Positions 42,256-58,297 of a stretch of DNA of 64,000 nt are shown here, one piece after another. Within the stretch, counting starts at the first letter, position 1, and every line of letters begins with the position of its first letter. This DNA is from Bacteroidales bacterium (GTDB lineage: Bacteria; Bacteroidota; Bacteroidia; Bacteroidales; WCHB1-69), in contig JAGCCZ010000001.1 of the NCBI GenBank assembly GCA_017651425.1, positions 6,222 through 70,221 on the forward strand, written 5' to 3'. The translations under genes were made by a program, and so were the position numbers. Below the pieces are notes generated by a model. It did not search any database. It was not told where the DNA came from and saw only the letters and a list, made by a program, of their open reading frames with translations.

Positions 42256-44304
42256 ATGGAAAATCCTAAACGATACACGGTTACCTCTGCCCTGCCCTAC
42301 GCCAACGGCCCCGTCCACATCGGCCACCTCGCCGGCGTCTATATCCCTGCCGACATCTACGCGCGCTACCTGCGCAACAACGGCAAGGAGGTGCTCTTCA
42401 TCGGCGGCTCCGACGAGCACGGCGTGCCCATCACCATCAAGGCCCGCAAGGAGGGCGTGACCCCGCAGGACATCGTGGACCGCTACCATAACATCATCAA
42501 GCAATCGTTCGAGGACCTCGGCATCTCCTTCGACATCTACTCCAGAACCTCCAACCCCACCCACCACGAGACCGCCGCCGCCTACTTCAAGAAACTGTAC
42601 GACGAGGGCAAGCTCATCGAGAAGACCTCTATGCAGTACTACGACGAGGAGGCCAAGCAGTTCCTCGCCGACCGCTACATCACCGGCACGTGCCCCCACT
42701 GTAAGAACGAGCACGCCTACGGCGACCAGTGCGAGGTGTGCGGCACCTCCCTCAACGCCACCGACCTCATCGACCCCAAGTCGGCACTCAGCGGCAACAC
42801 CCCTGTGCTGAAGGAGACCAAGCACTGGTATTTGCCTTTGGACCAGTACGATCCGTGGCTCCGCGAGTGGATCCTCCAGGGGCACAAGGACGACTGGCGC
42901 CCCACGGTGTATGGCCAGTGCAAGTCGTGGATTGACCAAGGGCTGCAGCCCCGCGCCGTCACCCGCGACCTCAACTGGGGCGTGAAAGTCCCCCTGGAAG
43001 ATGCCGATGGCAAGGTGCTCTATGTCTGGTTCGACGCTCCCATCGGCTACATCTCCGCCACCAAGGAGTGGGCCGAGGCGCACCACACCGACTGGCAGCC
43101 CTGGTGGAAAGACCAGGAGACCCAGCTGGTACACTTCATCGGCAAGGACAACATCGTGTTCCACTGCATCATATTTCCCTGTATGCTGAAGGCCGACGGC
43201 TCTTACATACTGCCCGACAACGTGCCCGCCAACGAGTTCCTGAACCTCGAGGGCGACAAGATCTCCACCTCCCGCAACTGGGCCGTCTGGGCGCACGAGT
43301 ATCTCCACGACTTCCCCGGCAAGCAGGACGTGCTGCGCTACACGCTCACCGCCATCGCGCCGGAGACCAAGGATGCCGACTTCACATGGGCCGACTACCA
43401 GGCGCGCAACAACAACGAGCTGCTGGCCATCTTCGGCAACTTCGTGAACCGCACCGTGGTGCTCACCCATAAATACTACGGAGGCATTGTGCCCGCCCCG
43501 GGCGAGTACTCCGACTACGAGAAGGAAATCGTGGCCAAGATGGCCGAGTTCCCCAAGACCATCGGCGACTCGATTGAGCATTACCGTTTCCGCGAGGCGC
43601 TGCAGGAGTTTATGAACCTGGCCCGCATCGGCAACAAGTACCTCACCGACACCGAGCCGTGGAAGAAGCAGAAGGAGAACCCCGAAGCCGTGAAGACCAT
43701 CCTGCACCTGTCGTTGCAGATCTGCGCCGCCCTTTCTGTGTTGTGCGAGCCGTTTTTGCCCTTCACTGCCAAGAAGTTGCAGCACATCCTCAACATCGAC
43801 AACAAGAACTGGCAGGATGGCGGCCGTGCCGACCTGCTGAAGGTGGGCGCGCAGCTCAACCCTGCCGAGTACCTTTTCGAGAAGATCGAGGACGCCGTCA
43901 TCGCCCAGCAGATCCAGAAGTTGGAGGACACCAAGAAGGCCAACGAGATTGCCACCGCCGAGGCCGTGGCTGCCAAGGAGGACGTCACCTTCGAGGAGTT
44001 CCAGAAGATGGACTTGCGGGTAGTCACCGTGTTGGAGGCCGAGAAGGTGGCCAAGACCAAGAAGCTGTTGAAGTTGAAGGTGAACACGGGCGTGGACGTG
44101 CGCGAGATCGTGTCGGGCATTGCCGAGTACTACGAGCCGCAGGACCTTGTGGGCAAGCAGGTGCTGATGCTCATCAACCTGGCCCCGAAGAACATCAAGG
44201 GTGTGGAGTCGCACGGAATGGTATTGATGGCCGAGCACGCCGACGGCACCCTGAGCCTGATGCAGCCGCAGAAGGCAGTGAAAGAGGGAAGTACTGTGAA
44301 ATAG
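42256..44304 (+). CDS. metG: Methionine--tRNA ligase
   Basis: HIGHLAG (HIGH) and KISTSRN (KMSKS-like) motifs, zinc knuckles CPHC/CEVC, and a C-terminal tRNA-binding domain. Confidence 0.95.
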
Positions 44305-44318
44305 ACAGGAACGCACCT

Positions 44319-45470
44319 ATGGCCGACGGATATTTGAATTTTGACGAATACATACGCCAAGGTGAACCGGCGCAGCGGGAACGGGCCGAAGCTTGGCGCG
44401 TGGCTATAGGATTGCAGGCCGTGGATGGGCTGAAGACCTCTGAGTATCTGCAAGAGACCGCCCGTCGCAACATCAAAGGGGAAATCACTATTGACGAGGC
44501 CCGTGAGATGGTGAAACAATACTATATCACCAAAACCACCCACGACGAGGATGATGGTGATAAAGCAGAAGCCGACAACGTTTCCGGAAACATTTCAAAG
44601 TTGCTTCAAACAGATACGTTTACCTATAGTGCAGCCGGGGTGGCAGCCATCCATCGGGCTATCTTCGAAGGCGTGTTCAAACACGCTGGACAATTCCGCG
44701 AATATGACATTTCAAAAAAGGAATGGGTGCTACGTGGTGACTCTGTGCTTTACGGACGTTGGCAGGATCTACGCATGGCAATAGACTACGACCTTGAACA
44801 AGAACGTCAGTTTGACTATTCAACATTGGATAAAGGACAGATAGTGGAGCATCTTGCCAAGTTTGTTGCGGGTTTATGGCAGATTCATCCGTTTCGGGAA
44901 GGCAACACTCGTACAACTGCCGTTTTCACCATCAAGTACCTGCGGGCTCAAGGTTTTCAGGTCAACAACGAAATGTTTGAGCAGCATTCGTGGTATTTCC
45001 GCAACGCACTGGTGCGCGCCAACTATCGGAATCTTGCAAAAGGGATAGGTTATGAACCGAAGTTCCTTGTGCGTTTCTTCCGTAATTTGCTGCTTGGCGA
45101 AAACAACATATTGAAGAACCGTTATATGGTAATTAATCCACCCGAAAAATGGAAGATGCCGGAAAGCGAACAAGTACCCGACAAGCACGGGATAAGCACA
45201 GGACAAGTACAGGACAAGCTGTACACCGACAACTATAATATTGTTGAGATCATTAAGGTTGTTGGGGGCAATATGTTGTCTGTAAAAGAGATGATGGCTG
45301 GTCTAAACCTCAAAGGAAGAGATAACTTTTTAAACCTTTATCTATCGCCCTCAATAGCAGAGGGGTATATCCGTCTGCTTTATCCCCAATCGCCCCGTCA
45401 CCCCCGCCAGAAGTATCTGCTGACCGTAAAGGGAATGGCCTTGTATAATGAGTTGATGAAAGGGGAATAG
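44319..45470 (+). CDS. Fic/DOC-family protein with an N-terminal VbhA-antitoxin-like helix and a C-terminal winged-helix-like tail
   Basis: The real start MADGYLNFDEY is at ATG 44319. The track ORF from 43659 runs out of frame through metG. The Fic motif region reads HPFREGNTRTTA. Confidence 0.8.
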   Translation: MADGYLNFDEYIRQGEPAQRERAEAWRVAIGLQAVDGLKTSEYLQETARRNIKGEITIDEAREMVKQYYITKTTHDEDDGDKAEADNVSGNISKLLQTDTFTYSAAGVAAIHRAIFEGVFKHAGQFREYDISKKEWVLRGDSVLYGRWQDLRMAIDYDLEQERQFDYSTLDKGQIVEHLAKFVAGLWQIHPFREGNTRTTAVFTIKYLRAQGFQVNNEMFEQHSWYFRNALVRANYRNLAKGIGYEPKFLVRFFRNLLLGENNILKNRYMVINPPEKWKMPESEQVPDKHGISTGQVQDKLYTDNYNIVEIIKVVGGNMLSVKEMMAGLNLKGRDNFLNLYLSPSIAEGYIRLLYPQSPRHPRQKYLLTVKGMALYNELMKGE

Positions 45471-45596
45471 GGGGTAGCGTCGCCCGCCGCGACCCGCCAT
45501 CTCAGCCAAAAGAGCTTGGTGAGGACGGAGGGGATTGCTGTGTTCCGTAACTGTCACTTTCCCGCAGGAAAGTGGAAGATTATGGTGGTTTTTTGT

Positions 45597-45604
45597 TATT
45601 TTTG
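45597..45604 (+). promoter_or_regulatory. -7 box TATTTTTG upstream of hsdM
   Basis: Lies 25 nt upstream of ATG 45630. A weak hairpin at 45555-45574 precedes it. Confidence 0.55.
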
Positions 45605-45629
45605 CAGGTTGAATATCTAACGACTAAAA

Positions 45630-47138
45630 ATGGCAAAGAAAACCAATACAGCAGACCTCGGATTTGAGGATAAGATATGGAAGGCGGCTAATATTCTTCG
45701 AGGTAATATTGCAGCTGCTGAATACAAGAATGTGGTGTTAGGTCTCATTTTCTTGAAATACATTTCCGATTGCTTTGATGTTAAGCACCAACAATTAGTG
45801 GACGAAGGTGATGGTTTTGAAGAAGATAAGGACGAATACATCTCTGAAAACATCTTTTATGTGCCTACTGATGCTCGTTGGAGCGTGATTGCTAATGCTG
45901 CTCACACCCCTGAAATTGGCAAAGTGATAGACAATGCCATGATGGAAATTGAGAAAGAGAATGACCGTCTAAAAGGCATTTTGCCCAAGAACTTTGCACG
46001 ACCAGAACTGGACAAACGTCGTTTGGGTGATGTGGTAGATCTCTTCACCAACACCATTGATCTTGGAAAAGAGGAAGAAAACAAAGATCTTTTAGGCCGC
46101 ACATACGAATATTGTCTCGCCAAGTTTGCATCGCTTGAAGGCAAGAATGCTGGTGAATTTTATACACCAAGTTGTATTGTACGAACAATCGTAGCTGTTC
46201 TTCAGCCTTTCAAAGGGCGTTGTTATGACCCGGCAATGGGAAGTGGCGGAATGTTTGTGCAAAGTGCAGAATTTGTACGCCATCATCAGGGTGACATTAA
46301 GAATCTTTCTATTTTTGGTCAAGAGTTTGTTGCCGAGACGCGCAAGATGGCCATGATGAACCTCGCTATCCGCGGCATTGAGGCCAATTTGGGCGAAAAG
46401 AACGCAGATACTTTTTTCGATGACCAGCATCCGACTTTGAAAGCCGATTTTGTGATGGCCAATCCTCCATTCAATATGAGTGATTGGGGTGCAGATAAGC
46501 TGCAAGATGATGTGCGTTGGAAATACGGCATTCCTCCGGCGGGCAATGCCAACTTTGCTTGGATGGAACACATGATCAGCCATCTCTCTCCGACAGGTCG
46601 GATAGGTTTGGTATTGGCCAACGGTTCTTTGAGCAGCCAGACGGGTGGTGAAGGAGAGATTCGTAAAAACATCTTGCAGGCCGACTTGGTGGAAGGCATT
46701 GTGGCGCTTCCCAGCCAGTTGTTCTACAGTACAGGCATTCCTGTTTGTCTTTGGTTCTTATGCAGGCAAAAAGCACAACCCGGCAAGGTACTTTTCGTTG
46801 ATGCCCGCAATATGGGCAAGATGGTGACACGCAAGCTGCGTGAGCTGACCGAAGCCGATATTGAGCGCATTGCCCAGACCTTTACCGATTACCGGAATGG
46901 CACACTCACTGATGAAAAAGGTTATTGCGCCGTTAAGACACTTGATGAGGTGGCTGCGCAAGACCATATCCTAACTCCCGGCCGTTATGTGGGCATTGCC
47001 GAGCAGGAGGATGATGGGGAACCTTTTGAGGAGAAGATGAATCGCCTCACCACCGAATTGAGCGGACTTTTCCAAGAAAGCCATAGATTGGAAGAGGAAA
47101 TAAAGAAACAGTTGGGGAGCATTGGTTTTTTTGTTTAA
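45630..47138 (+). CDS. hsdM: Type I restriction-modification system, N6-adenine DNA methyltransferase subunit
   Basis: HsdM N-terminal domain (LRGNIAAAEYKNVVLGLIFLKY), then GEFYTP, DPAMGSGGM and MANPPF. Confidence 0.93.
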   Translation: MAKKTNTADLGFEDKIWKAANILRGNIAAAEYKNVVLGLIFLKYISDCFDVKHQQLVDEGDGFEEDKDEYISENIFYVPTDARWSVIANAAHTPEIGKVIDNAMMEIEKENDRLKGILPKNFARPELDKRRLGDVVDLFTNTIDLGKEEENKDLLGRTYEYCLAKFASLEGKNAGEFYTPSCIVRTIVAVLQPFKGRCYDPAMGSGGMFVQSAEFVRHHQGDIKNLSIFGQEFVAETRKMAMMNLAIRGIEANLGEKNADTFFDDQHPTLKADFVMANPPFNMSDWGADKLQDDVRWKYGIPPAGNANFAWMEHMISHLSPTGRIGLVLANGSLSSQTGGEGEIRKNILQADLVEGIVALPSQLFYSTGIPVCLWFLCRQKAQPGKVLFVDARNMGKMVTRKLRELTEADIERIAQTFTDYRNGTLTDEKGYCAVKTLDEVAAQDHILTPGRYVGIAEQEDDGEPFEEKMNRLTTELSGLFQESHRLEEEIKKQLGSIGFFV

Positions 47139-47150
47139 TTTCAAATCTAA

Positions 47151-47987
47151 ATGATTCCTAATATGAAAGATATGTTTTATCCAAATATCGAATTTCTGAA
47201 TATTGATGATTTAAATGTCTTTTTGGGAGACATGCCTGTTTTGTATAAATATATGCCGTTGGAGAACACTTTAAATACTTTGAAAAATAAAACAATATGG
47301 TTAGCTGACCCTAAAACATGGGAAGATCCTTTTGAAAAGAGATTCCTCAATGCTAAATATAAGAATTCAAAGGGGGTAGAAATGGTATTTCCGTATTCGG
47401 GAAAAACATTTGCAACATGTTTAACACGCAATCCATCCAGTGAAGCTCAATGGAATGTATACTCAAGAAATGAAATTGGAATCAAATTTAAAATAAGTAC
47501 AAAAGTACTTCTTGAACAATTGAATAAATTCTCACAAAATCATCCTAAATACAAGGTGTATTTTGGAAAGGTTGAGTATCACAAAAGAGAAGAAATAGAA
47601 CAAACACAACTATCTAAATTGACATTTGAAGCAGAAAGAAAAGGAGTTAAAATAAACAAGAGTTTGCAAAATAAAGACTTTTGCGCTCGTTTGTTTCTTT
47701 TAAAAAGACGTGATTTTGAATATGAAGACGAGGTTCGTATAATTGTTTTTAAGGATATTAAGAATACTGCGGCAGGAATCAGCTTTGATTATACTTGTTC
47801 TAACAGTATGATCTTTCCTCAATTAACAATTTCACCTCGTGTAAAAAACAATGTTGAAAACATGCTAAAAGAATACCTTATCCAATTCGGCATGAATCCT
47901 CTTGTAGACAGCCTCGGGAGAAAACAACATCGCGTTGTTAAAAGCCATCTTTTTGATGACGAAAACGAGGTTACAATAAGCATATGA
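47151..47987 (+). CDS. DUF2971-family protein embedded in the R-M operon
   Basis: VLYKYMPLENTLNTLKNKTIWLADPKTWEDPFE, AQWNVYS..IGIKF and LLKRRDFEYEDEVRII match my recollection of the DUF2971 signature. It starts 12 nt after the hsdM stop. Confidence 0.7.
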   Translation: MIPNMKDMFYPNIEFLNIDDLNVFLGDMPVLYKYMPLENTLNTLKNKTIWLADPKTWEDPFEKRFLNAKYKNSKGVEMVFPYSGKTFATCLTRNPSSEAQWNVYSRNEIGIKFKISTKVLLEQLNKFSQNHPKYKVYFGKVEYHKREEIEQTQLSKLTFEAERKGVKINKSLQNKDFCARLFLLKRRDFEYEDEVRIIVFKDIKNTAAGISFDYTCSNSMIFPQLTISPRVKNNVENMLKEYLIQFGMNPLVDSLGRKQHRVVKSHLFDDENEVTISI

Positions 47988-48037
47988 CATTAACTTGGAT
48001 AAAAGATATGTTAGGAAATAGACTTTATTATTAAAAT

Positions 48038-48466
48038 ATGGAAACGATAGTACAATGGACAACAATCTTAAGCCCGATTATTGCGGTTATTATAGCAATA
48101 TTGATGGTTAGAAGCAGCAATAGAGATACTGCCAAACAAATTGAGAGCATTAAGGAAAGTACCTCTCGTCAGATTGAAAGTATCAAGAACTTATCCAGAC
48201 AAATGATAGATTCTTCCATTAAACAAGTGGAATTAGAAATAGAAAAGACCCTTATTCTAGCACAACAAGCACAACAAGAATGGGAAGGTGTTGAAGAGAT
48301 TAATCGTTCTGGATTATCTCACATGGTATCTTTTAGAAATGAAGCTATGAGACAGTATCACGAGGAAAAGCCTAAAAGAGATCATCAGTTATATTCCTCA
48401 TCTATTAAGAATCTTCAGGCTATTAAGAAAGACCTGGAAGCTCATAAAAAAGAATTGAACTCATAA
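48038..48466 (+). CDS. Small protein with one N-terminal TM helix and a coiled-coil tail
   Basis: 142 aa. The TM segment is WTTILSPIIAVIIAILMV. It has heptad-like repeats KQIESIKESTSRQIESIKNLSRQ. Its stop TAA 48464-48466 is 1 nt before the hsdS ATG. Confidence 0.6.
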   Translation: METIVQWTTILSPIIAVIIAILMVRSSNRDTAKQIESIKESTSRQIESIKNLSRQMIDSSIKQVELEIEKTLILAQQAQQEWEGVEEINRSGLSHMVSFRNEAMRQYHEEKPKRDHQLYSSSIKNLQAIKKDLEAHKKELNS

Positions 48467-48467
48467 T

Positions 48468-49631
48468 ATGGAAGAGTGGAAAGAATATAGGTTGGGAGAT
48501 ATAGCGGTTGTAACCATGGGACAATCACCAAATTCCTCTTATTATAACAATGTAGGAGATGGAGTGCCATTTCTGCAAGGCAACAGAACTTTTGGAATGA
48601 AATATCCAACTTTTGATACGTTCACTACTTCTGCCACAAAATACGCCGAAGGAAACGACGTAATTATGAGTGTACGAGCACCTGTAGGGGATGTGAATAT
48701 TACTCCAATAAGAATGTGCTTGGGGCGTGGACTATGTGGGTTGCGTTTAAACAATGGTAATCAGGAGTTTTTGTATTATTTGATGCGTTATTACGCTAAT
48801 AATCTGATTAACAAAGAATCAGGAACGGTTTTTGGGTCTATCAATCGCAATGATATTGCAAATCTTATAGTGAGAGTCCCGTCATTTGAACTTCAGAAAA
48901 AAATAGCCTATATATTATCTTCCTTTGATGACAAAATCGAAGTAAATCAGCGTATAAATGATAATTTAGAGCAACAAGCCACAGCTTTATTCAAGTATTG
49001 GTTTGTGGATTTCGGGCCATTCAAGGATGGCGAGTTTGAGGAAAGTGTATTGGGAATGATACCTAAAGGGTGGAGAGTGGGAAAACTATTAGATGTTGCA
49101 AATATCACGATGGGAACTTCACCTGTAGGTTCAAGTTATAATGTGACAGGAGAAGGAGATGTTTTTTATCAAGGTCGAGCAGAATTTGGTTTTAGATTTC
49201 CAAAGAGAAATATGTACACTACAGAGGCCAAGAGATTTGCTGATATTGATAGCGTTTTGTTAAGTGTCCGTGCTCCTGTTGGAGATATTAATGTTGCAGA
49301 TGAAAGATGTTGTATTGGTCGAGGGTTAGCTTCGATTCAATCGAGGGATGGGAACAACTCTTACATTCTATATTTGATGAAAAGTCTGTATCCACAATTC
49401 GAAAAGTATAATAGCGAAGGCACTGTTTTTGGGTGTATTAATAAGAAAGCATTGGAACAATTAGCTGTGGTGACTCCTCCGAATGAAACGATAAGTAGAT
49501 TTGATAAAATATGCAGTGAAATAGATGGCCAAATTAAAATACTTGATCAAGAAACCCGCCGACTTGCCACCCTTCGGGACACATTATTGCCGAGATTAAT
49601 GTCAGGAAAGTTAAAAGTAAATGAATTATAA
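48468..49631 (+). CDS. hsdS: Type I restriction-modification system, specificity subunit
   Basis: Two target-recognition domains are separated by conserved helices (LEQQATALFKYWFVDF and LATLRDTLLPRLMSGKL). Confidence 0.9.
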   Translation: MEEWKEYRLGDIAVVTMGQSPNSSYYNNVGDGVPFLQGNRTFGMKYPTFDTFTTSATKYAEGNDVIMSVRAPVGDVNITPIRMCLGRGLCGLRLNNGNQEFLYYLMRYYANNLINKESGTVFGSINRNDIANLIVRVPSFELQKKIAYILSSFDDKIEVNQRINDNLEQQATALFKYWFVDFGPFKDGEFEESVLGMIPKGWRVGKLLDVANITMGTSPVGSSYNVTGEGDVFYQGRAEFGFRFPKRNMYTTEAKRFADIDSVLLSVRAPVGDINVADERCCIGRGLASIQSRDGNNSYILYLMKSLYPQFEKYNSEGTVFGCINKKALEQLAVVTPPNETISRFDKICSEIDGQIKILDQETRRLATLRDTLLPRLMSGKLKVNEL

Positions 49632-49639
49632 GTACTACT

Positions 49640-51475
49640 ATGAGAATTAAGAAAGTAATTATTGACAATTTTAAATCCATTGATCATATTGATTTAGATT
49701 TTGACAAGGTCGGGGATAGTTATACGAAGATTTTTGTAGGTATAAATGAGTCTGGTAAAAGTAATATATTAGAGGCATTATCATATTTCAAGGTTCCGGA
49801 TAATAATGTTTCTTTCGATAGTTACTGTAACCAAAAGATTGAAGACAGGGATATATGCAGTATCCTCTTCGAATTAGAATTTGAGCCTAATACGCCATTT
49901 GTCCTTAATGAAAAAAAAGGAAAAGGACAAGGTTTAAATCTCTCTCTTTCTAATATTACCAAGAAAGTGTATCTTTCCAAGGGTGCAAATAGGTTTGATC
50001 ACTCCTATAGTTTTGATATACAATTATTAGATGCTAATCTTTTTATAAAAAAAACACCAACACCAAATCAATATGGCATTGGTCGTGGTGTTAACGATAG
50101 TATTGTGCCTGAATCAGAAAAAGATGATAATTCCGAACCGCTCACAATTAAGCATGTTGAACATATTTATAATGACACCATAATAAAGTATATTGAAAAT
50201 AATGAACCTTCAGTTTCCGTGTGGAAAGCGTCATCGGAATATTTATTCTCAAATGTTAATTTGAATGCTTTCGCGCAAAATATCGATTCAAATAAACCAT
50301 TAAAAAATATTTTCCATTTAAGTGGTTTTAAAGATCAACCATCTATTGTCGAAGCAATTAGCAAGGTTAGAAACCCTAAAAACAGAAGTATTCTTTCAAG
50401 TAGATTAAATGAATCCTTAAACAATTATATAAACAAGGTCTGGAGTAATAAAATAAACATTGTTATTGAGATAACTGAAACTGGTGCATTGTCTTTTCTT
50501 ATTAAAGATCAGGGTGCAGAAAATGAGCACAACCGCTTTGATATAACGGAAAGAAGCCAAGGTGCTCAACAATTCTTGTCACTTATTTTATCATTATCCC
50601 TTGAAGCCGAAAATCAAGAAAGAAAAAATGAATTGATCTTGATAGATGAACCTGAAACACACTTGCATCCTTCTGGTATTAGGGATTTAGGACGAGAATT
50701 ACTAAAAGTTGGAAAAGAAAATTATGTTTTCTTAGCAACACATTCTCCTTTCATCATTGATAAAAGTCATAAGGAGAGACATTATATTGTGAAAAAGGAC
50801 AAGAAATCTATCACAGAAATAAAAAGAATAAGAGAAAGTGACAACATTATTGATGATGAAGTGCTTAATGAGGCATTTGGAATCAATGTATATCAAGATC
50901 TATTAAATCCTCATAGCGTTTTGGTTGAAGGAGCATCTGATAAAGTTATCTTGCAAAAAGTTTTTTCTCTATTGGGCCGGAAAGATATTGGAATCACTAA
51001 CGGACATGGAACAAATATTGATACATTGGCTTCGAAAATGAACTTTGATAATATTTCTGTTTTAGTTGTTACTGACGATGACAAAGATGGTAAAAAATAT
51101 AAAGAAAAAATACTCAAAATAGGTGGCGTGTTTAATGAGAATAATGTTTTCACTATTCGTGATCTGGAAGGTAGAATTGTTGATCAAGGAACCATTGAGG
51201 ATACGTTAGGTATAGGATACGTTAAGTCTCAATTTCAAGAATTCTATAGGAATAGATTTGATGAGGAATTGTCGGATTTTGATCTATTAGATGATAGAAC
51301 TGTTATTTCACAAATCGAAGAATTCTTGAAAGGTAAAAGAAAATTCAGCAGTTGGGATATGGATGCTTTTAAGAAGCTTGTTTCTGATAATTTCAATCCC
51401 GGTAAATCTGCTTTAAACAAACAATTTGGAATTTTGAAGGGTTTAGCGGAAAAAATGATTGAAAAGTTGAATTAA
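49640..51475 (+). CDS. OLD-family-like ABC-type ATPase fused to a TOPRIM nuclease domain
   Basis: Walker A GINESGKSN, signature-like RSQGAQQF, Walker B LILIDEPETHLHP and LATHSPF. The TOPRIM motifs are VLVEGASDKV and VLVVTDDDKDGKK. Confidence 0.8.
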   Translation: MRIKKVIIDNFKSIDHIDLDFDKVGDSYTKIFVGINESGKSNILEALSYFKVPDNNVSFDSYCNQKIEDRDICSILFELEFEPNTPFVLNEKKGKGQGLNLSLSNITKKVYLSKGANRFDHSYSFDIQLLDANLFIKKTPTPNQYGIGRGVNDSIVPESEKDDNSEPLTIKHVEHIYNDTIIKYIENNEPSVSVWKASSEYLFSNVNLNAFAQNIDSNKPLKNIFHLSGFKDQPSIVEAISKVRNPKNRSILSSRLNESLNNYINKVWSNKINIVIEITETGALSFLIKDQGAENEHNRFDITERSQGAQQFLSLILSLSLEAENQERKNELILIDEPETHLHPSGIRDLGRELLKVGKENYVFLATHSPFIIDKSHKERHYIVKKDKKSITEIKRIRESDNIIDDEVLNEAFGINVYQDLLNPHSVLVEGASDKVILQKVFSLLGRKDIGITNGHGTNIDTLASKMNFDNISVLVVTDDDKDGKKYKEKILKIGGVFNENNVFTIRDLEGRIVDQGTIEDTLGIGYVKSQFQEFYRNRFDEELSDFDLLDDRTVISQIEEFLKGKRKFSSWDMDAFKKLVSDNFNPGKSALNKQFGILKGLAEKMIEKLN

Positions 51476-51489
51476 TTTACTTCAGCAAT

Positions 51490-54400
51490 ATGTCAGACTT
51501 CAACGAAGATCATTACGAGCAGACGCTGATTGAGCTGTTTAAAGAGCGATTGGACTACAAGTATCTCAACGGCTACGAGGCACAAGAGGCATTTGAGGAC
51601 AAGGACTACTATTGTCCTGTCTATCTCGAACGGCTGCAGATGAAACTGCGCGACCTCAATCCCAAACTGCCGCAATCGGCACTCGATGAAGCGGAGCGGA
51701 AGTTGCTTCATATTGAAGCGGGCAATATGGTTCAGAACAACGAGCTCTTCATGGACTACCTGCAACATGGCGTGGAGGTGACCTTTCATGATGGTCATGA
51801 GTTGAAGAATGACATTGTTTATCTGGTTGATTATAAAGATATCTTAGAGAATGACTTCCTACTGGCGAACCAATGGACATTCGTGGAGAAGTCTAAAAAA
51901 CGCGCCGATTTAATCCTTTTCCTTAACGGTCTGCCTGTAGTGTTGATGGAACTGAAATCGCCTTCGCGCGAAGAAACCGATGCCAGCGCCGCTTACCGCC
52001 AACTCAAAAACTATATGAAGGAGATTCCTACCATGTTCACCTACAATGTATTCTGTGTAATGAGCGATATGGCGGAATCAAAAGCAGGCACCATCACCTC
52101 CAACGAGGATCGTTTTATGCAATGGAAATCAAAAGATGGCGTCTATGAAAGCACAGAGGTGGTGGATTACGATGTGTTCTTCGAGGGAATGTTCCGAAAG
52201 GAGAGGCTGTTGGATATTATCCGCAATTTCGTCTGCTACAGCAAGGACGAGGGAAAGGACAACAAGATATTGGCAGGTTACCATCAGTATTTTGCGGTGA
52301 AGAAAGCGGTGGAGCGTACCAAATTGGCGGTCACTGGCGATGGAAAGATCGGCGTATTTTGGCACACCCAGGGCAGCGGCAAGAGTCTCTCGATGGTGTT
52401 TTATGCCCATCTGCTGCAATCCACTATTTCGCAACCAACCATTGTGGTCATTACCGACCGTAACGACCTTGACAATCAACTTTATAGTCAGTTTGCCAAG
52501 TGCAAGGATTTTCTGCGACAAGTGCCAGTGCAAGCCATTTCTCGTCAGCATTTGCGCGAACTACTTGAGGGCCGCACAGCCAATGGCATCATATTTACCA
52601 CAATGCAGAAGTTCGAGGAATACGATGCGCCATTGTCCACCCGCCGAAACATCATTGTGATGAGCGATGAAGCCCATCGCGGGCAGTACGGTTTTGAGGA
52701 GAAGATTGACCCGGCGACAGGAAAAGTCAGCGTCGGCACCGCCCGTCTCATCCACGATTCGCTGCCTCACGCCTCGTTCATTGGCTTCACCGGCACCCCT
52801 ATCGCCAAGACAGACCGAAACACCATCGAGGTGTTTGGTGACTGCATTGATGTGTATGATATGACGCAGAGCGTTTTGGACCACGCCACCGTACCAGTCT
52901 ATTACGAAAGCCGCGTCATCAATCTCAAACTTGACGACGAGACGCTCCAACTTATCGACAAAGAATTTGAACTTTTGGAAGCGGAAGGTGCCGATGCACA
53001 GCAAGTTGAAAAGAGCAAGCGAGACCTCTCGCATCTTGAAGAGCTGCTTGGAGCTGATTCCACCATAGATTCGTTGGTACAAGACATTCTTAACCACTAT
53101 GAAAACTATCGTGAGCAAGAACTGACCGGCAAAGCGATGATTGTGGCATACAGCCGCCCGATTGCTATCAAGATATACAAGCGAATACTTGAATTGAGGC
53201 CTGAATGGACGGAGAAGGTGAAATGCGTAATGTCAGGCGACAACAATGACCCCGAGGAATGGCACAACATCATTGGCAACAAGCAGTACAAACAAGAACT
53301 GGCGAAGAAGTTCAAGGATGACAATGATCCGATGAAGATTGCCATAGTGGTTGATATGTGGCTCACGGGGTTCGATGTTCCATCCTTGGCTACAATGTAC
53401 GTTTTCAAGCCACTGAATGGGCACAACCTGATGCAGGCCATTGCCCGTGTAAACCGCGTGTTCAATGGGAAAGAAGGCGGTCTGGTGGTCGATTACATCG
53501 GCATCGCACAAGCTTTGAAGTCGGCTATGAAATTTTACAGCGCTCACGACCGTCAAAAGTTCGGTGATCCGGACATCAAGACCACCGCCTTGAAAAAATT
53601 CCAGGAGGAGTTGGAAATCTGTCGCGATCTGATGCACGGTTTCGATTATTCAAAGTTCAAAGATTCTTCAGACCTGAAACGGGCTGAACTCATCAAAGGC
53701 GGCACCAACTTCCTGCTGTCCAAAGATATGCAGGAGAAGAAATCGGACTATATGAAACACGCCACCTTGCTGCACCAGTCCATCACACTGTGTCGCAGCC
53801 TGCTCAATGAAAACCAACGTTGGGAAAGTGCCTTTTTTGAGACGGTGCGTGTGATGATTCTGCGTTTGAGCGGCAAAGGAAAGATAACCAAGAAGGAAAT
53901 CGACGAACGCATCCGTGAACTGCTGAAACAGAGCGTAAAGAGCGAAGGCGTCATCAACCTGTTCCAAGACGCTGGCAAAGAGTTTTCATTAAACGATCCT
54001 GCTTTCTTGGAAGAGTTGACCAAGATGAAGGAGAAGAACATCTCCATCCAAATTTTGGAAAACCTGTTGAAAGACAAGGTGAAAGCGTTCCAACACAAGA
54101 ATCTCGTGCAAAGTGAGAAGTTTTCTGAGCTGCTGAACCATGCGTTAAGCAACTATCTGAAAGGGATGTTGACCAATGAAGAGGTGATTCAGGAATTGCT
54201 CAAGTTGGCATCGCAAATCAAGGAAACCGAGCAACAGGGCAATGAGCTTGGTTTGACCGATGAGGAAAAGGCCTTTTATGATGCGCTGACGCGTCCACAA
54301 GCGGTGCGAGACATTTATGAGAACGACGAATTGGTGGCTATGACCAAGGAACTGACCGAAACACTCCGCAAGAATCGCACCATCGACTGGCAACACAAAG

Positions 54401-54645
54401 AGTCTGCCCGTGCGGGCATGCGCAAGATGGTGAAACGACTGTTGAAGAAATACAAATATCCGCCCGAGGAGGCTGAGCACGCCATGGACATTGTGCTGAA
54501 GCAGTGTGAGGAGTGGGCGGACGAAGATGAATACACTGTGACAGAACCGAAAGTCATACGGTTTTATTCTCAAAAAGAGGAAGAATCTAGGAATATTGCT
54601 GCTGAAGACGAATTACCGTACAACACTGAATTTATTGAATCATAA
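51490..54645 (+). CDS. hsdR: Type I restriction endonuclease, R subunit
   Basis: 1051 aa with an N-terminal nuclease region (ADLILFLNGLPVVLMELK), then TQGSGKS and the DEAH box SDEAHRGQ. Confidence 0.93.
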   Translation: MSDFNEDHYEQTLIELFKERLDYKYLNGYEAQEAFEDKDYYCPVYLERLQMKLRDLNPKLPQSALDEAERKLLHIEAGNMVQNNELFMDYLQHGVEVTFHDGHELKNDIVYLVDYKDILENDFLLANQWTFVEKSKKRADLILFLNGLPVVLMELKSPSREETDASAAYRQLKNYMKEIPTMFTYNVFCVMSDMAESKAGTITSNEDRFMQWKSKDGVYESTEVVDYDVFFEGMFRKERLLDIIRNFVCYSKDEGKDNKILAGYHQYFAVKKAVERTKLAVTGDGKIGVFWHTQGSGKSLSMVFYAHLLQSTISQPTIVVITDRNDLDNQLYSQFAKCKDFLRQVPVQAISRQHLRELLEGRTANGIIFTTMQKFEEYDAPLSTRRNIIVMSDEAHRGQYGFEEKIDPATGKVSVGTARLIHDSLPHASFIGFTGTPIAKTDRNTIEVFGDCIDVYDMTQSVLDHATVPVYYESRVINLKLDDETLQLIDKEFELLEAEGADAQQVEKSKRDLSHLEELLGADSTIDSLVQDILNHYENYREQELTGKAMIVAYSRPIAIKIYKRILELRPEWTEKVKCVMSGDNNDPEEWHNIIGNKQYKQELAKKFKDDNDPMKIAIVVDMWLTGFDVPSLATMYVFKPLNGHNLMQAIARVNRVFNGKEGGLVVDYIGIAQALKSAMKFYSAHDRQKFGDPDIKTTALKKFQEELEICRDLMHGFDYSKFKDSSDLKRAELIKGGTNFLLSKDMQEKKSDYMKHATLLHQSITLCRSLLNENQRWESAFFETVRVMILRLSGKGKITKKEIDERIRELLKQSVKSEGVINLFQDAGKEFSLNDPAFLEELTKMKEKNISIQILENLLKDKVKAFQHKNLVQSEKFSELLNHALSNYLKGMLTNEEVIQELLKLASQIKETEQQGNELGLTDEEKAFYDALTRPQAVRDIYENDELVAMTKELTETLRKNRTIDWQHKESARAGMRKMVKRLLKKYKYPPEEAEHAMDIVLKQCEEWADEDEYTVTEPKVIRFYSQKEEESRNIAAEDELPYNTEFIES

Positions 54646-54658
54646 ATCCAATAGCACT

Positions 54659-55240
54659 ATGCAAAAACACCTCCCTCTCCTCCTCGCCTGCCTCATGTTT
54701 GCAGGCTCCATCTTCGCCCAACAGCATCTTTCCTTCAAAGGCGTGCCCATTGACGGCACATTGAAGGCATACACCGACGCCATGGTGAAAGCCGGATTCC
54801 ACTACGAAGACACCCAAGATGGAATTGCGCTGCTGACAGGCGATTTTGCCGGATATAAAAACTGCGTCGTCGGGGTATCCACCCTGGAAAATCTGGATGT
54901 GGTCAGCCATATAGCTGTGCTCTTCCCCGAAAAGGAAACCTGGACGGCCGTGCTTAATGACTATGAAACTCTCAAAGCAATGCTCACCGAAAAATATGGC
55001 AAACCATCGGACTCGCAGGAAAAATTTACCGGTTATGTCGGAGACAACAGCAATGGTTTTATTATGCACGCCTTGAATGAGGGTGAATACGTATGGTACA
55101 CCACATTCACAACCGAATTGGGCGACATCCAGCTGTCCATTGCAGAGGGAACCAAATATGCCACCGCAATGGTCCGTCTCGTCTATCGCGACAAGGCCAA
55201 TGGTGAGAAGGTGCGCAGCGCGGCGATGGATGATCTGTAG
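54659..55240 (+). CDS. Hypothetical secreted protein
   Basis: The start MQKHLPLLLACLMFAGSIFAQQ (signal peptide) is at ATG 54659, 13 nt after the hsdR stop. Confidence 0.55.
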   Translation: MQKHLPLLLACLMFAGSIFAQQHLSFKGVPIDGTLKAYTDAMVKAGFHYEDTQDGIALLTGDFAGYKNCVVGVSTLENLDVVSHIAVLFPEKETWTAVLNDYETLKAMLTEKYGKPSDSQEKFTGYVGDNSNGFIMHALNEGEYVWYTTFTTELGDIQLSIAEGTKYATAMVRLVYRDKANGEKVRSAAMDDL

Positions 55241-55282
55241 TCTATCTCTTCGCCTGCCCTGCCAGCATAGCTCACCCCCTCC

Positions 55283-55332
55283 CCTTCCGCGGCGAGCCAT
55301 CCACAACCTCTTGGCGGGCCATCCCCGCGCCG
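55283..55332 (+). repeat. GC-rich ~50-bp repeat, direct partner at 57295-57346
   Basis: CCTTCCGCGGCGAGCCATCCACAACCTCTTGGCGGGCCATCCCCGCGCCG compared with CCCTTCCGCGGAGAACATGTCCACACCTTTGTGGCGGGCCATCCCCGCGCCG. The core also resembles 26039-26061 (reverse complement) and 28895-28917. Confidence 0.8.
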
Positions 55333-55671
55333 CGGCGGATGCCCGGGACACCGCATACCTACCGGGCCACCCACCCCCGCACGCCGCCGGCGTGCGACAT
55401 CCGCCCGCACATCCTCAACGCTACCAACCCCCGCAGCCCGATGGGCTGCGACGACAGCGCACATAATTGCAAACATGTTGATTTTCCCCACGGACCGTGT
55501 CCCGGAGGGAGACAATCTTAGTAAGGAGCACGGCAACTCGACTGCAACCCGCGACGTAGTTTTCAAAACCATCTTCGAGCAGGCGGAGAGTTTTAAGAAG
55601 AATAGCGATCTTGGGGATGATCCCGAGATGATAAAAAATTTCAACATACACTTTCTGTTATTAAAAAATTG

Positions 55672-55679
55672 TATCTTTG
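55672..55679 (+). promoter_or_regulatory. -7 box TATCTTTG upstream of the toxin gene
   Basis: Lies 22 nt upstream of ATG 55702. Confidence 0.55.
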
Positions 55680-55701
55680 CAAACTAAAAAAACATTCGCA
55701 G

Positions 55702-56043
55702 ATGGATTTGACTTTTGCAGATAAGAATCTAAAGAAATGTGCTTTGGATCAACGTAAATGCCAGAAGGAGATGGGAAAGCAACGTGCCGAGTTGTATCTT
55801 AGAAGAATCGCAGATCTTGATGCAGCATACACTCTCGAGGACGTCAGGTATTTGCCAGGGCATTACCATGAGCTGACACAGGATAAAAAGGGGAAATGGG
55901 CTTGTGATTTAGACCAACCTTATCGACTGGTTTTCAAACCCCATGAAGACCCTATTCCAGAGGATGAAAATCACAAATACATTTGGGCTGAAATATTAGG
56001 AGTGGAGATTATTGAAATAGTTAATTACCATAAGGAAAAGTAA
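55702..56043 (+). CDS. HigB-like (plasmid-maintenance killer, RelE/ParE superfamily) toxin
   Basis: 113 aa: MDLTFADKNLKKC...RRIADLDAAYTLEDV...HELTQDKKGKWACDLDQPYRLVF matches the killer-protein family pattern. Confidence 0.72.
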   Translation: MDLTFADKNLKKCALDQRKCQKEMGKQRAELYLRRIADLDAAYTLEDVRYLPGHYHELTQDKKGKWACDLDQPYRLVFKPHEDPIPEDENHKYIWAEILGVEIIEIVNYHKEK

Positions 56044-56055
56044 AATAATAAAGAT

Positions 56056-57165: not shown

Positions 57166-57294
57166 TCTTATCATTTTTGTTTCCTCTATAAAGGTACATT
57201 TCTTTCTACGTAAATGGATGTACCAAACGAACAGGTGCGTACATACCTTAACAGCAAGGATTTTCGTCACGGTGTCTGCGGGCAACAAAGGGAA

Positions 57295-57346
57295 CCCTTC
57301 CGCGGAGAACATGTCCACACCTTTGTGGCGGGCCATCCCCGCGCCG
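57295..57346 (+). repeat. Second copy of the GC-rich ~50-bp repeat
   Basis: See 55283-55332. Confidence 0.8.
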
Positions 57347-57480
57347 GACTGCCAAAATATCAAGACACAGGAAAACAGATTGCCATTCACATTTTTCTTA
57401 TCTTTGCCCTTTCTTTTTTGTGACCAATTTTTTTAATGAAAAATAATCTACAATAACAACCCTGCTAAAAACATCATACA

Positions 57481-58167: not shown

Positions 58168-58261
58168 AAATTAGTTGATCGGTTTTCTCACTTGCCTCTT
58201 CTCCCGTTCCCTCCGACTCCACATTTTTTCTTCCTCCCCATTTTTTGAAAGATAAAAAGAC

Positions 58262-58269
58262 TATTTTTG
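58262..58269 (+). promoter_or_regulatory. -7 box TATTTTTG upstream of the giant surface-protein gene
   Basis: Lies 28 nt upstream of ATG 58298. Confidence 0.55.
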
Positions 58270-58297
58270 CACCTTGGAAACACGAACGCCTCGACTT

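What the first reader, a model, noticed from the sequence alone, without database searches (positions are those of the whole stretch)
45597..54645. Type I R-M operon interrupted by three unrelated genes: hsdM | DUF2971 | TM-coiled-coil | hsdS | ABC-ATPase/TOPRIM | hsdR
Seen: the junctions are very tight. The hsdM stop at 47138 is followed by an ATG at 47151. The small ORF ends with TAA at 48464-48466 and the hsdS ATG is at 48468. The hsdS stop at 49631 is followed by an ATG at 49640. The 611-aa ORF stops at 51475 and the hsdR ATG is at 51490. I see no TAnnTTTG box and no hairpin plus T-run at any junction. The only larger gap is 50 nt (47988-48037). All six genes therefore look like one transcript driven from the box at 45597. 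The 47.15-51.5 kb block, including hsdS, is visibly more AT-rich than hsdM and hsdR, which suggests the middle of the operon was swapped in as a unit. Established: canonical type I loci contain only hsdR, hsdM and hsdS. The classic exception is the E. coli prr locus, where the PrrC anticodon nuclease sits between hsdS and hsdR. PrrC is held latent by the R-M complex and released when phage T4 Stp attacks that complex. Inference: this could be a guarded R-M system in which up to two backup effectors are coupled to the R-M complex. The candidates are a TOPRIM nuclease and a membrane protein with a DUF2971 partner. I do not recognise this exact six-gene architecture as a described system.
Basis: partly seen in the sequence, partly recalled or inferred. 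Interest (0 to 1): 0.85.

Follow-up and report, generated by a model that had tools for sequence, protein, structure and literature searches.

The report
Type I restriction operon carrying nested defence genes
A complete type I restriction-modification operon in a gut or rumen Bacteroidales genome holds three extra genes that come and go independently in related loci: two are known stand-alone anti-phage genes, and the third is an undescribed small membrane protein that always sits directly in front of the specificity gene hsdS.

Summary
Six co-directional ORFs lie at 45630-54645. The gaps between them are 12, 50, 1, 8 and 14 nt. No promoter box or terminator lies in any gap. The four middle genes have 31-38% GC, against 46-48% for hsdM and hsdR.

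This is not a conserved six-gene system, and the middle was not swapped in as one unit.

- **DUF2971** is PADLOC candidate PDC-S31. It has a DarT-like ADP-ribosyltransferase fold and belongs to the same Pfam family as the validated single-gene system Aristaios. It is a clean insertion relative to locus L001. Elsewhere it sits in unrelated defence islands.
- **The ATPase/TOPRIM protein** is an OLD-family nuclease with all catalytic motifs intact. In 7 of 7 contexts examined it directly follows a methylation-based system: type I, type IIG or BREX.
- **The 142-aa membrane/coiled-coil protein** is not a DUF2971 partner. In 33 of 33 informative loci it precedes hsdS, and 32 of those are gene-to-gene adjacent.

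Defence genes embedded in type I operons are already published. The hsdS-linked small protein is the undescribed element.

The parts
45597..45604 (+). TATTTTTG, a Bacteroidetes-type -7 promoter box 26 nt upstream of the hsdM ATG
   Evidence: It is the only TAnnTTTG between the Fic stop (45470) and hsdM. No -33 TTTG partner lies at 14-24 nt. Promoter function is not tested.
45630..47138 (+). hsdM, the type I methyltransferase subunit (502 aa)
   Evidence: Pfam N6_Mtase 4e-104 and HsdM_N 2e-28. PADLOC MTase_I 1.5e-208. It is 94% identical in amino acids to the L001 HsdM.
47151..47987 (+). DUF2971 protein, matching PADLOC candidate PDC-S31. It is a DarT-like predicted ADP-ribosyltransferase and an independently mobile embedded defence gene.
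   Evidence: Pfam DUF2971 scores 40.3 bits against a cutoff of 22. PADLOC PDC-S31 6e-42. The AF2 model has pLDDT 92.3. The top 7 Foldseek PDB hits are all DarT, best E=1.7e-4 with probability 1.00. Y191, E192, E194 and R196 are invariant. The gene is absent from L001, with breakpoints at about 47130 and 48033.
48038..48466 (+). Small hsdS-linked membrane protein (142 aa). It has an N-terminal transmembrane helix followed by a helical hairpin predicted to face the cytoplasm. The family is uncharacterised.
   Evidence: It has no significant Pfam, PADLOC or PHROG hit. The only family hit is a sub-threshold NCBIfam match of 19.9 bits against a cutoff of 80. It has more than 517 homologues. Median dN/dS is 0.14. 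AF2 predicts helices 2-24, 30-90 and 99-141. One hydrophobic segment has no K/R on its N-terminal side and 2-5 K/R on its C-terminal side. hsdS follows in 33 of 33 informative loci.
48468..49631 (+). hsdS, the specificity subunit with two target-recognition domains (387 aa)
   Evidence: Pfam Methylase_S 1e-37 with two stretches. PADLOC Specificity_I 4e-104. Its ATG lies 1 nt after the stop of the small gene.
49640..51475 (+). [quoted passage not shown]
   Evidence: Pfam AAA_15 5e-27, AAA_21 3e-16 and OLD-like_TOPRIM 1e-5. PADLOC Old 2.3e-30 and AriA 1e-29. The closest solved structures are TsOLD 6p74 (3e-7) and GajA. Invariant residues are G34-K40-S41, S306-Q307-G308, D336-E337, H368, E430 and D479-D481.
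51490..54645 (+). hsdR, the restriction/translocase subunit (1051 aa)
   Evidence: Pfam HSDR_N, SWI2_SNF2, T1R_D3-like and T1RH-like_C. PADLOC REase_I 1e-284. TIGR00348 hsdR 3.6e-172.
44319..45470 (+). Fic-family protein matching PADLOC candidate PDC-S72. It is an island neighbour upstream of the operon's promoter box, not one of the six genes.
   Evidence: Pfam Fic and Fic-like_C. PADLOC PDC-S72 2.5e-109. The start codon was located. A 61%-identical Fic sits directly upstream of the small gene in L041.

Best explanation
The locus is a complete type I restriction-modification operon (hsdM, hsdS, hsdR) inside a GC-poor defence island of a gut or rumen Bacteroidales genome. It has picked up three passengers with separate evolutionary histories. 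It is a nested, layered defence locus, not a dedicated six-gene machine.

1. **DUF2971 (PDC-S31).** A stand-alone ADP-ribosyltransferase with a DarT-like fold. By analogy with DarT and the Aristaios system, it most likely acts by abortive infection through ADP-ribosylation of nucleic acid. This is inferred.
2. **OLD-family ABC-ATPase/TOPRIM nuclease.** It belongs to a clade that habitually sits directly downstream of methylation-based systems. It most likely acts as a second-line nuclease that works beside the R-M enzyme or fires when that enzyme is bypassed or inhibited. This is inferred. No physical coupling is shown.
3. **The 142-aa membrane-anchored helical-hairpin protein.** Its stop lies from 4 nt inside to 16 nt before the hsdS start codon in 31 of the 34 loci, suggesting translational coupling, and it is found only in type I loci. 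It is most likely an accessory or regulatory factor of the methyltransferase/restriction complex. One example would be tethering or sequestering HsdS-containing complexes at the inner membrane. This is inferred, with low to moderate confidence.

All six genes are probably co-transcribed from the box at 45597. That is inferred from the gaps only.
For: **Shown: modularity among loci that share this hsdM/hsdR family (84-94% amino-acid identity).**

| Locus | Gene order |
|---|---|
| window | M, DUF2971, small, S, OLD, R |
| L001 | M, small, S, OLD, R |
| L049 | M, DUF2971, small-like, S, R |
| L043 | M, integrase, S, S, OLD, GmrSD, R |

**DUF2971.** PDC-S31 6e-42. DarT fold. Other contexts are a GmrSD island and a reverse-transcriptase/Dnd island. 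A DUF2971 protein, Aristaios, gives single-gene abortive infection (PMC11381338). DUF2971 is predicted to be a DarT-like ART (PMC12522546).

**OLD.** Motifs are intact. All 7 contexts examined are adjacent to methylation-based defence: type I four times, type IIG twice and BREX once. OLD-ABC/TOPRIM modules have been described as backup effectors of BREX and RM-like systems (PMC12839542).

**Small protein.** hsdS follows in 33 of 33 loci. In 31 of the 34 loci the gap is -4 to +16 nt. It occurs with two HsdM families that are only about 27% identical to each other. dN/dS is 0.14. It was not found in viral contigs. Among 132 cluster representatives there are no fusions.

**Embedding is a published general phenomenon**.
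Against: - There are no expression, interaction or phenotype data.
- A single transcript is not demonstrated. Internal TAnnTTTG boxes lie within the hsdS and OLD coding sequences.
- The 7 of 7 linkage of OLD to R-M or BREX could reflect real functional dependence, as in a PrrC-like guard. The "independent passenger" description would understate that.
- The small protein is absent from closely related loci (L043, L057). It is therefore not needed for basic R-M function.
- The small-protein tree is only loosely partitioned by R-M family.
- The context samples are modest: 7 OLD contexts, 4 DUF2971 contexts and about 30 small-protein loci. They come mostly from rumen and gut metagenomes.
Confidence: 0.75

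Rival explanations
1. This is an integrated guarded R-M system. OLD, and perhaps DUF2971 with the membrane protein, would be held latent by physical association with the HsdMSR complex. They would be released as abortive-infection effectors when a phage anti-restriction protein attacks the complex, as PrrC is in EcoprrI.
For: - OLD occupies the hsdS-hsdR slot that prrC occupies. Like PrrC it is an ABC ATPase fused to a nuclease (the PrrC position is from my own knowledge).
- This OLD clade is adjacent to methylation-based systems in 7 of 7 contexts.
- PARIS, an OLD-type ABC ATPase with a TOPRIM partner, senses the anti-restriction protein Ocr.
- AriA and AriAB PADLOC models score almost as well as Old.
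Against: - The same OLD clade sits next to type IIG enzymes and BREX, which share no subunits with HsdMSR. A specific protein-protein latch to the type I complex is therefore unlikely.
- DUF2971 homologues occur away from any R-M system.
- The three inserts do not co-occur.
- The small protein is linked to hsdS, not to DUF2971.
Confidence: 0.15
2. The small membrane protein is itself an independent embedded defence effector, such as an abortive-infection membrane disruptor or a block to superinfection. It would not be an accessory of the R-M enzyme. Its fixed position before hsdS would be only a favoured insertion slot.
For: - Small single-pass membrane proteins are common defence effectors (my own knowledge).
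- It is dispensable in related loci L043 and L057.
- The hsdM-hsdS gap is an insertion hotspot. It holds an integrase, Bro-N proteins, AAA_14/DUF4143, an alpha-CTD-like protein and signal-peptide ORFs.
- A second, unrelated transmembrane/coiled-coil ORF lies in the same slot in L015.
Against: - Every other embedded gene examined also occurs in other contexts. The small gene never does: hsdS follows in 33 of 33 loci, and it is absent from viral contigs.
- When other inserts are present it stays next to hsdS, with those inserts upstream of it.
- The 1-8 nt or overlapping junctions with hsdS point to coupled translation.
Confidence: 0.3
3. The inserts are inert or decaying passengers, or the small ORF is a gene-calling artefact.
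For: Low GC marks the middle genes as horizontally acquired.
Against: - All ORFs are full length with catalytic motifs intact.
- The small gene is under purifying selection, with dN/dS 0.14, mean column identity of 76% and more than 517 homologues.
Confidence: 0.03

Closest known systems
Defence genes embedded in type I R-M, BREX, DISARM and Hma operons ('guilt-by-embedding'; Payne, Hughes, Fineran and Jackson, bioRxiv 10.1101/2024.01.29.577857)
   Same: Same phenomenon: same-strand genes nested between hsdM, hsdS and hsdR. PDC-S31 (DUF2971) and PDC-S72 (the upstream Fic) are PADLOC PDC candidates, the class of models derived in that screen. OLD is listed there among the ABC-ATPase defences.
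   Different: This particular combination is not described. The small hsdS-linked protein has no PADLOC model. The family is nearly absent from reference genomes, with 4 loci among 185,579 GTDB species representatives. It may therefore have fallen below that study's abundance filters; this last point is my inference.
EcoprrI-PrrC (E. coli prr locus)
   Same: An ABC-ATPase-nuclease fusion gene lies inside a type I operon between hsdS and hsdR. It is the conceptual model of an R-M guardian.
   Different: The nuclease here is a TOPRIM/OLD domain, not the PrrC anticodon-nuclease domain. The clade is not exclusive to type I systems; it also follows type IIG and BREX genes. No latency or Stp-like trigger is known.
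Class 1 OLD nucleases (P2 Old, Thermus scotoductus OLD 6P74, Vibrio cholerae OLD) and PARIS AriA/AriB
   Same: ABC ATPase plus TOPRIM in a single polypeptide, with no helicase or retron partner. Walker A and B, the signature motif, the TOPRIM glutamate and the DxD motif are all conserved.
   Different: Similarity to solved OLDs is remote (E about 1e-7, covering only part of the protein). Class 1 is described as single genes that are not near other defence genes (PMC10568477). This clade is next to an R-M or BREX gene in 7 of 7 contexts. Old and AriA/AriAB models score about equally.
Aristaios (Lactococcus plasmid single-gene abortive-infection system, DUF2971) and the DarT toxin
   Same: DUF2971 domain, ADP-ribosyltransferase fold and an invariant Y-E-x-E motif. 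It is a single gene with no conserved neighbour.
   Different: Direct sequence similarity to Aristaios was not measured. No DarG-type macrodomain antitoxin is adjacent. TM-scores to DarT are low (0.32-0.43), which fits the large helical inserts reported for the DUF2971 family.

Membership tests
Type I restriction-modification system | HsdM with an N6-adenine methyltransferase domain and the HsdM N-terminal domain | tested here: met
   N6_Mtase 4e-104, HsdM_N 2e-28; MTase_I 1.5e-208.
Type I restriction-modification system | HsdS with two target-recognition domains | tested here: met
   Methylase_S with two stretches across the 387 aa. Specificity_I 4e-104.
Type I restriction-modification system | HsdR with an N-terminal nuclease domain, an SF2 motor and a C-terminal domain | tested here: met
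   HSDR_N, SWI2_SNF2, T1R_D3-like, T1RH-like_C; TIGR00348 at 574 bits against a cutoff of 285.
Type I restriction-modification system | Restriction and methylation activity | not testable with these tools
   This needs methylome sequencing and restriction assays.
OLD-family nuclease (class 1-like) | N-terminal ABC ATPase with Walker A, signature, Walker B and H-loop motifs | tested here: met
   (AAA_15, AAA_21, SMC_N); invariant G34/K40/S41, S306-Q307-G308, D336-E337 and H368 in 26 homologues.
OLD-family nuclease (class 1-like) | C-terminal TOPRIM domain with a conserved glutamate and a DxD metal-binding motif | tested here: met
   (OLD-like_TOPRIM at 26.4 bits against a cutoff of 23.2); aligned to TsOLD and GajA; invariant E430 and D479-D480-D481.
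OLD-family nuclease (class 1-like) | No UvrD-like helicase partner (class 2) and no reverse transcriptase or ncRNA (class 3) next to it | tested here: met
   The neighbours are hsdS and hsdR. Rfam finds no RNA family in 44000-58500.
OLD-family nuclease (class 1-like) | Single gene not near other defence genes, as class 1 is described in PMC10568477 | tested here: not met
   It is embedded in a type I operon. Homologues are adjacent to R-M or BREX in 7 of 7 contexts.
PARIS (AriA/AriB or fused AriAB) | Sequence membership in the AriA/AriAB family rather than in Old | tested here: inconclusive
   Old 2.3e-30, AriA 9.9e-30 and AriAB 2.7e-24 are too close to separate. Pfam assigns OLD-like_TOPRIM, and no DUF4435 hit was listed.
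PARIS (AriA/AriB or fused AriAB) | Triggered by anti-restriction DNA mimics such as Ocr | not testable with these tools
   This needs co-expression assays.
PrrC anticodon nuclease | Gene embedded in a type I operon between hsdS and hsdR | tested here: met
   OLD at 49640-51475 lies between hsdS and hsdR.
PrrC anticodon nuclease | C-terminal anticodon-nuclease domain of the PrrC/RloC type | tested here: not met
   The C-terminal domain is TOPRIM. PrrC is not among the best 25 PADLOC families.
DUF2971 / PDC-S31 / Aristaios-type single-gene defence | DUF2971 domain above the Pfam threshold and a match to the PADLOC PDC-S31 model | tested here: met
   40.3 bits against a cutoff of 22; PDLC04993, 6e-42, covering residues 31-250.
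DUF2971 / PDC-S31 / Aristaios-type single-gene defence | ADP-ribosyltransferase fold with conserved catalytic motifs (a motif II tyrosine and an ExE motif III) | tested here: met
   The AF2 model has pLDDT 92.3. The top 7 PDB hits are DarT. Y104, Y191, E192 and E194 are invariant in 34 sequences. The motif definition is from PMC12522546.
DUF2971 / PDC-S31 / Aristaios-type single-gene defence | Acts alone, with no conserved partner gene | tested here: met
   The downstream neighbours differ in all four contexts: small, a 133-aa small-like protein, a 244-aa ORF and a 109-aa ORF. The last two are unrelated to small and to each other.
DUF2971 / PDC-S31 / Aristaios-type single-gene defence | Anti-phage activity | not testable with these tools
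   Only the Lactococcus DUF2971 protein Aristaios has been tested.
DarTG toxin-antitoxin | Adjacent DarG macrodomain antitoxin | tested here: not met
   The neighbours are hsdM and the small membrane protein. No macrodomain was found.

The most novel reading that the evidence does not exclude
The 142-aa protein is a previously unrecognised fourth component of type I R-M systems in gut and rumen Bacteroidales. It would be an inner-membrane anchor whose cytoplasmic helical hairpin docks onto HsdS-containing complexes, perhaps on the HsdS/HsdM coiled-coil bundle. That would place or regulate restriction and modification at the membrane, where foreign DNA enters. Separately, the OLD clade here may be an obligate companion of methylation-based defences, a PrrC- or PARIS-like guardian that is not tied to one system type.
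Probability: 0.25. Interest if true: 0.7.

Novelty: new variant of a known kind. Interest (0 to 1): 0.45.

Why it matters
The overall architecture is one more example of defence genes nested in an R-M operon. That phenomenon has already been used systematically to discover new systems. Two points are worth carrying forward.

1. **A strongly conserved small membrane protein is tightly joined to hsdS.** The link holds across two distantly related type I families and in more than 30 loci. No database or paper I searched describes it. If it modulates or localises the enzyme, it would add a component to one of the oldest known enzyme systems. It may have been missed because it is nearly confined to uncultured rumen and gut Bacteroidales.
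2. **An OLD clade always sits directly downstream of type I, type IIG or BREX genes.** It is a tractable candidate for testing whether single-gene OLD nucleases act as guardians of methylation-based immunity. The OLD literature lists the defence role of class 1 proteins as an open question (PMC10568477).

Tried and rejected
- **Small protein as a DUF2971 partner: rejected.** DUF2971 has 42 homologues against more than 517 for the small protein. They co-occur only in the window and in L049.
- **Middle block swapped in as a unit: rejected** by nucleotide comparison with L001, L043 and L049.
- **Flanking repeats, shufflon inverted repeats or target-site duplications around the inserts:** none of note.
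- **Fold search of the small-protein model:** only generic helical hairpins such as HlyD, ClyA and Vipp1, none at E<=1e-3. This was uninformative.
- **Similarity of the small protein to HsdS helices:** none.
- **Fusions of the small domain to HsdS or HsdM:** none among 132 cluster representatives, all 179 aa or shorter.
- **Small family in viral contigs:** none.
- **Rfam families in 44-58.5 kb:** none.
- **Sigma-70 promoter scan:** not above chance (33 found, 26.9 expected) and not appropriate for Bacteroidetes.
- **Literature searches:** nothing found for 'PDC-S31' or for a small membrane protein between hsdM and hsdS. The Campylobacter rlo (restriction-linked ORF) literature surfaced only as passing mentions and was not followed up.
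- **Small-protein phylogeny fully independent of R-M family: softened.** Proteins from the second family cluster together (65% mean identity). Window-type ones are basal and diverse. The partition is therefore partial.

Full report
**1. Observation**

| Gene | Coordinates |
|---|---|
| hsdM | 45630-47138 |
| DUF2971 | 47151-47987 |
| small ORF (142 aa) | 48038-48466 |
| hsdS | 48468-49631 |
| 611-aa ATPase/TOPRIM | 49640-51475 |
| hsdR | 51490-54645 |

- The junction sequences were read directly. They give gaps of 12, 50, 1, 8 and 14 nt.
- TATTTTTG lies at 45597, 26 nt before the hsdM ATG.
- TAnnTTTG is enriched in the window (50 matches, 28.5 expected). This fits a Bacteroidetes genome.
- None of the five gaps holds such a box, and no + strand terminator-like hairpin lies between 47.1 and 51.5 kb.
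- There are + strand boxes inside coding sequence at 49369, 49496, 49990, 50008 and 51253. None has a -33 TTTG partner. Co-transcription is therefore likely but unproven.
- GC is 0.31-0.38 for the four middle genes and 0.46-0.48 for hsdM and hsdR. Most flanking long ORFs in the window have 0.51-0.60. The whole island is GC-poor, and its core is more so.

**2. Gene identities**

- HsdM, HsdS (two recognition domains) and HsdR are complete by Pfam, PADLOC and NCBIfam.
- The 278-aa protein carries DUF2971 and matches PADLOC candidate PDC-S31 at 6e-42.
- The 611-aa protein has AAA_15, AAA_21 and OLD-like_TOPRIM domains. Its best PADLOC hits are Old (2.3e-30) and AriA (1e-29).
- The 142-aa protein has no significant hit in Pfam, PADLOC or PHROGs. 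Its only family hit is a sub-threshold NCBIfam match of 19.9 bits against a cutoff of 80.
- The source is a Bacteroidales metagenome-assembled genome, judging from the names attached to identical proteins.
- The neighbours are as follows.
  - metG lies upstream, followed by a Fic protein at 44319-45470 that matches PDC-S72 at 2.5e-109.
  - A lipoprotein-like ORF lies downstream of hsdR.
  - A HigB-like toxin and an M78 peptidase resembling PD-Lambda-2_B follow it.

**3. DUF2971**

- It has only 42 homologues.
- The AlphaFold2 model is confident (pLDDT 92.3).
- Its seven best PDB matches are all DarT DNA ADP-ribosyltransferases, best E=1.7e-4 with probability 1.00. TM-scores are low (0.32-0.43).
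- Y191, E192, E194 and R196 are invariant across 34 sequences. This matches the ExE motif III described for DUF2971 as a DarT/AbiGi-like ART (PMC12522546).
- A Lactococcus DUF2971 protein, Aristaios, is an experimentally validated single-gene abortive-infection system (PMC11381338).
- Contexts of homologues vary:

| Locus | Identity to window | Context |
|---|---|---|
| L049 | 65% | M, DUF2971, 133-aa small-like, S, R, Vsr |
| L050 | 41% | island with GmrSD, PIN and AbiH |
| L053 | 40% | between a reverse-transcriptase/iREC pair and a Dnd cluster |

- Relative to L001, the gene is a clean insertion of about 900 bp between the hsdM stop and the small-gene ATG.

**4. OLD**

- At least 790 homologues score E<=1e-10.
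- In 26 aligned homologues the following are invariant:
  - Walker A (G34, K40, S41);
  - the signature motif (S306-Q307-G308);
  - Walker B (D336-E337);
  - the H-loop (H368);
  - the TOPRIM glutamate (E430);
  - the DxD motif (D479-D481).
- The closest solved relatives are the class 1 OLD from Thermus scotoductus (6p74, 3e-7) and GajA (2e-6).
- Homologues for the context survey were chosen for long contigs and a range of identities, not for their context. All are directly downstream of, and co-directional with, a methylation-based defence gene:

| Locus | Identity to window | Context |
|---|---|---|
| window | 100% | S, OLD, R |
| L001 | 76% | S, OLD, R |
| L043 | 74% | S, OLD, GmrSD, R |
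| L057 | 58% | M, S, OLD, R |
| L044 | 61% | type IIG Eco57I-like enzyme, then OLD |
| L055 | 65% | type IIG Eco57I-like enzyme, then OLD |
| L047 | 63% | BREX brxL, then OLD |

- The partners differ, so a specific latch to HsdMSR is unlikely. The consistent linkage still argues for functional synergy.
- OLD-ABC/TOPRIM modules have been described as a backup effector layer of BREX and RM-like systems. PARIS senses the anti-restriction protein Ocr (PMC12839542; PMC12707154).
- Class 1 OLDs are described as single genes away from other defence genes (PMC10568477). This clade departs from that description.

**5. The small protein**

*Family size and conservation*
- It has more than 517 homologues at 55-77% identity.
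- Mean column identity is 76% in a 30-sequence alignment.
- At 50% clustering there are 132 representatives, all 179 aa or shorter. No fusions were seen.
- Median dN/dS is 0.14 over 77 unsaturated pairs.

*Predicted structure and topology*
- AlphaFold2 predicts a transmembrane helix (2-24) followed by a helical hairpin (30-90 and 99-141), with pLDDT 77.
- All 30 members have one hydrophobic segment. No K/R precedes it and 2-5 K/R follow it. By the positive-inside rule this predicts an N-out, C-in topology.

*Linkage to hsdS*
- I examined 34 non-identical loci.
- hsdS follows immediately in 32 of them.
  - In 31 the gap is -4 to +16 nt.
  - In L041 the hsdS start is ambiguous.
- One locus has a 94-aa ORF between the small gene and hsdS.
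- One contig ends too early to tell.
- hsdS identity was confirmed by Pfam for 10 of 10 tested, by an HsdS HMM, or by the called genes.
- The loci belong to two type I families. Their HsdM proteins are only about 27% identical, and their HsdR C-terminal domains differ (T1RH-like_C versus EcoR124_C). The small proteins remain about 54% identical between the two families.
- When other genes are inserted between hsdM and hsdS, they lie upstream of the small gene, which stays next to hsdS. These inserts include an integrase, Bro-N proteins, AAA_14/DUF4143, an alpha-CTD-like protein and signal-peptide ORFs.

*Distribution*
- The family is rare in reference genomes: 4 loci among the GTDB species representatives, all rumen or gut Bacteroidales or Prevotella MAGs.
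- It is absent from viral contigs.
- It is missing from closely related loci L043 and L057, so it is dispensable.

*Reading*

I take it to be an hsdS-coupled accessory or regulator, possibly a membrane tether. An independent membrane effector is the main rival.

**6. Synthesis**

- Loci sharing this hsdM/hsdR family carry the inserts in different combinations (see the table under the best explanation).
- The slot between hsdS and hsdR also holds GmrSD, an AAA_21 ATPase with a partner, Fic, PF05635 four-helix proteins and unknown ORFs.
- The six-gene arrangement is thus one state of a modular hotspot. Apart from proteins identical to the window's own, I found all three inserts together in no other locus.
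- Embedding in type I operons is a published general phenomenon, and PADLOC's PDC class of candidates, to which PDC-S31 belongs, was derived from that screen.
Layered defence with a possible OLD guardian role remains plausible.

**7. Verdict**

- This is a new variant of a known kind, with interest 0.45.
- The undescribed element worth following up is the hsdS-linked small membrane protein. The R-M/BREX-linked OLD clade comes second.

Noticed in passing
window 44319-45470 (+); L041 5-388; L037 11575-12606: A Fic-family protein directly upstream of the operon matches PADLOC candidate PDC-S72 (2.5e-109). A 61%-identical Fic sits directly upstream of the small gene in L041. A different Fic lies between hsdS and hsdR in L037. 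Fic proteins therefore look like recurrent associates of these type I loci.
   Followed up: partly
window 54659-55240 (+): A 193-aa lipoprotein-like ORF (MQKHLPLLLACLMFAGS...) starts 13 nt after the hsdR stop and runs in the same direction. Its GC is about 0.5 and it has no family hit. It may be a seventh co-transcribed gene. Small ORFs with signal peptides are also embedded in related loci: L005 7621-8004; L013 2788-3201, which is 46% identical to L028 659-1057; and L025 3529-3906.
   Followed up: partly
window 55240-55480: A C-rich (GC 0.54-0.59), apparently non-coding stretch lies between the lipoprotein-like ORF and the toxin-antitoxin pair. A shorter GC-rich stretch lies at 45470-45540 between Fic and hsdM. 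No repeat relationship between the two was detected.
   Followed up: no
window 55669-56043 (+) and 56056-57165 (+): A HigB-like toxin (Pfam 1.2e-4; phrog_3066 'toxin of TA system' 4.5e-10) is followed 12 nt later by an M78/IrrE-type peptidase protein that matches PADLOC PD-Lambda-2_B (3e-34). This is probably another defence or toxin-antitoxin module in the same island.
   Followed up: partly
L012 11580-12308; L058 8700-9431; L060 9742-10401: PF05635 (23S_rRNA_IVP four-helix-bundle) genes recur between hsdS and hsdR in the EcoR124_C-type loci that also carry the small gene.
   Followed up: no
L015 1994-2278 (also L016 4840-5124): A second, unrelated 94-aa ORF with a transmembrane segment and a coiled-coil tail lies between the small gene and hsdS. 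It is the only case where the small gene and hsdS are not adjacent.
   Followed up: no
L043 3534-7004; L022 991-1983: Related type I loci carry a tyrosine recombinase between hsdM and hsdS. L043 also has two full hsdS genes. This looks like a phase-variable specificity shufflon and is an alternative occupant of the same slot.
   Followed up: no
window 42256-44304 (+): metG has GC 0.605 and GC3 0.90, at the top of the window's range. The island begins 15 nt after its stop codon, so the metG 3' end may be the integration boundary. No tRNA gene lies anywhere in the window.
   Followed up: no
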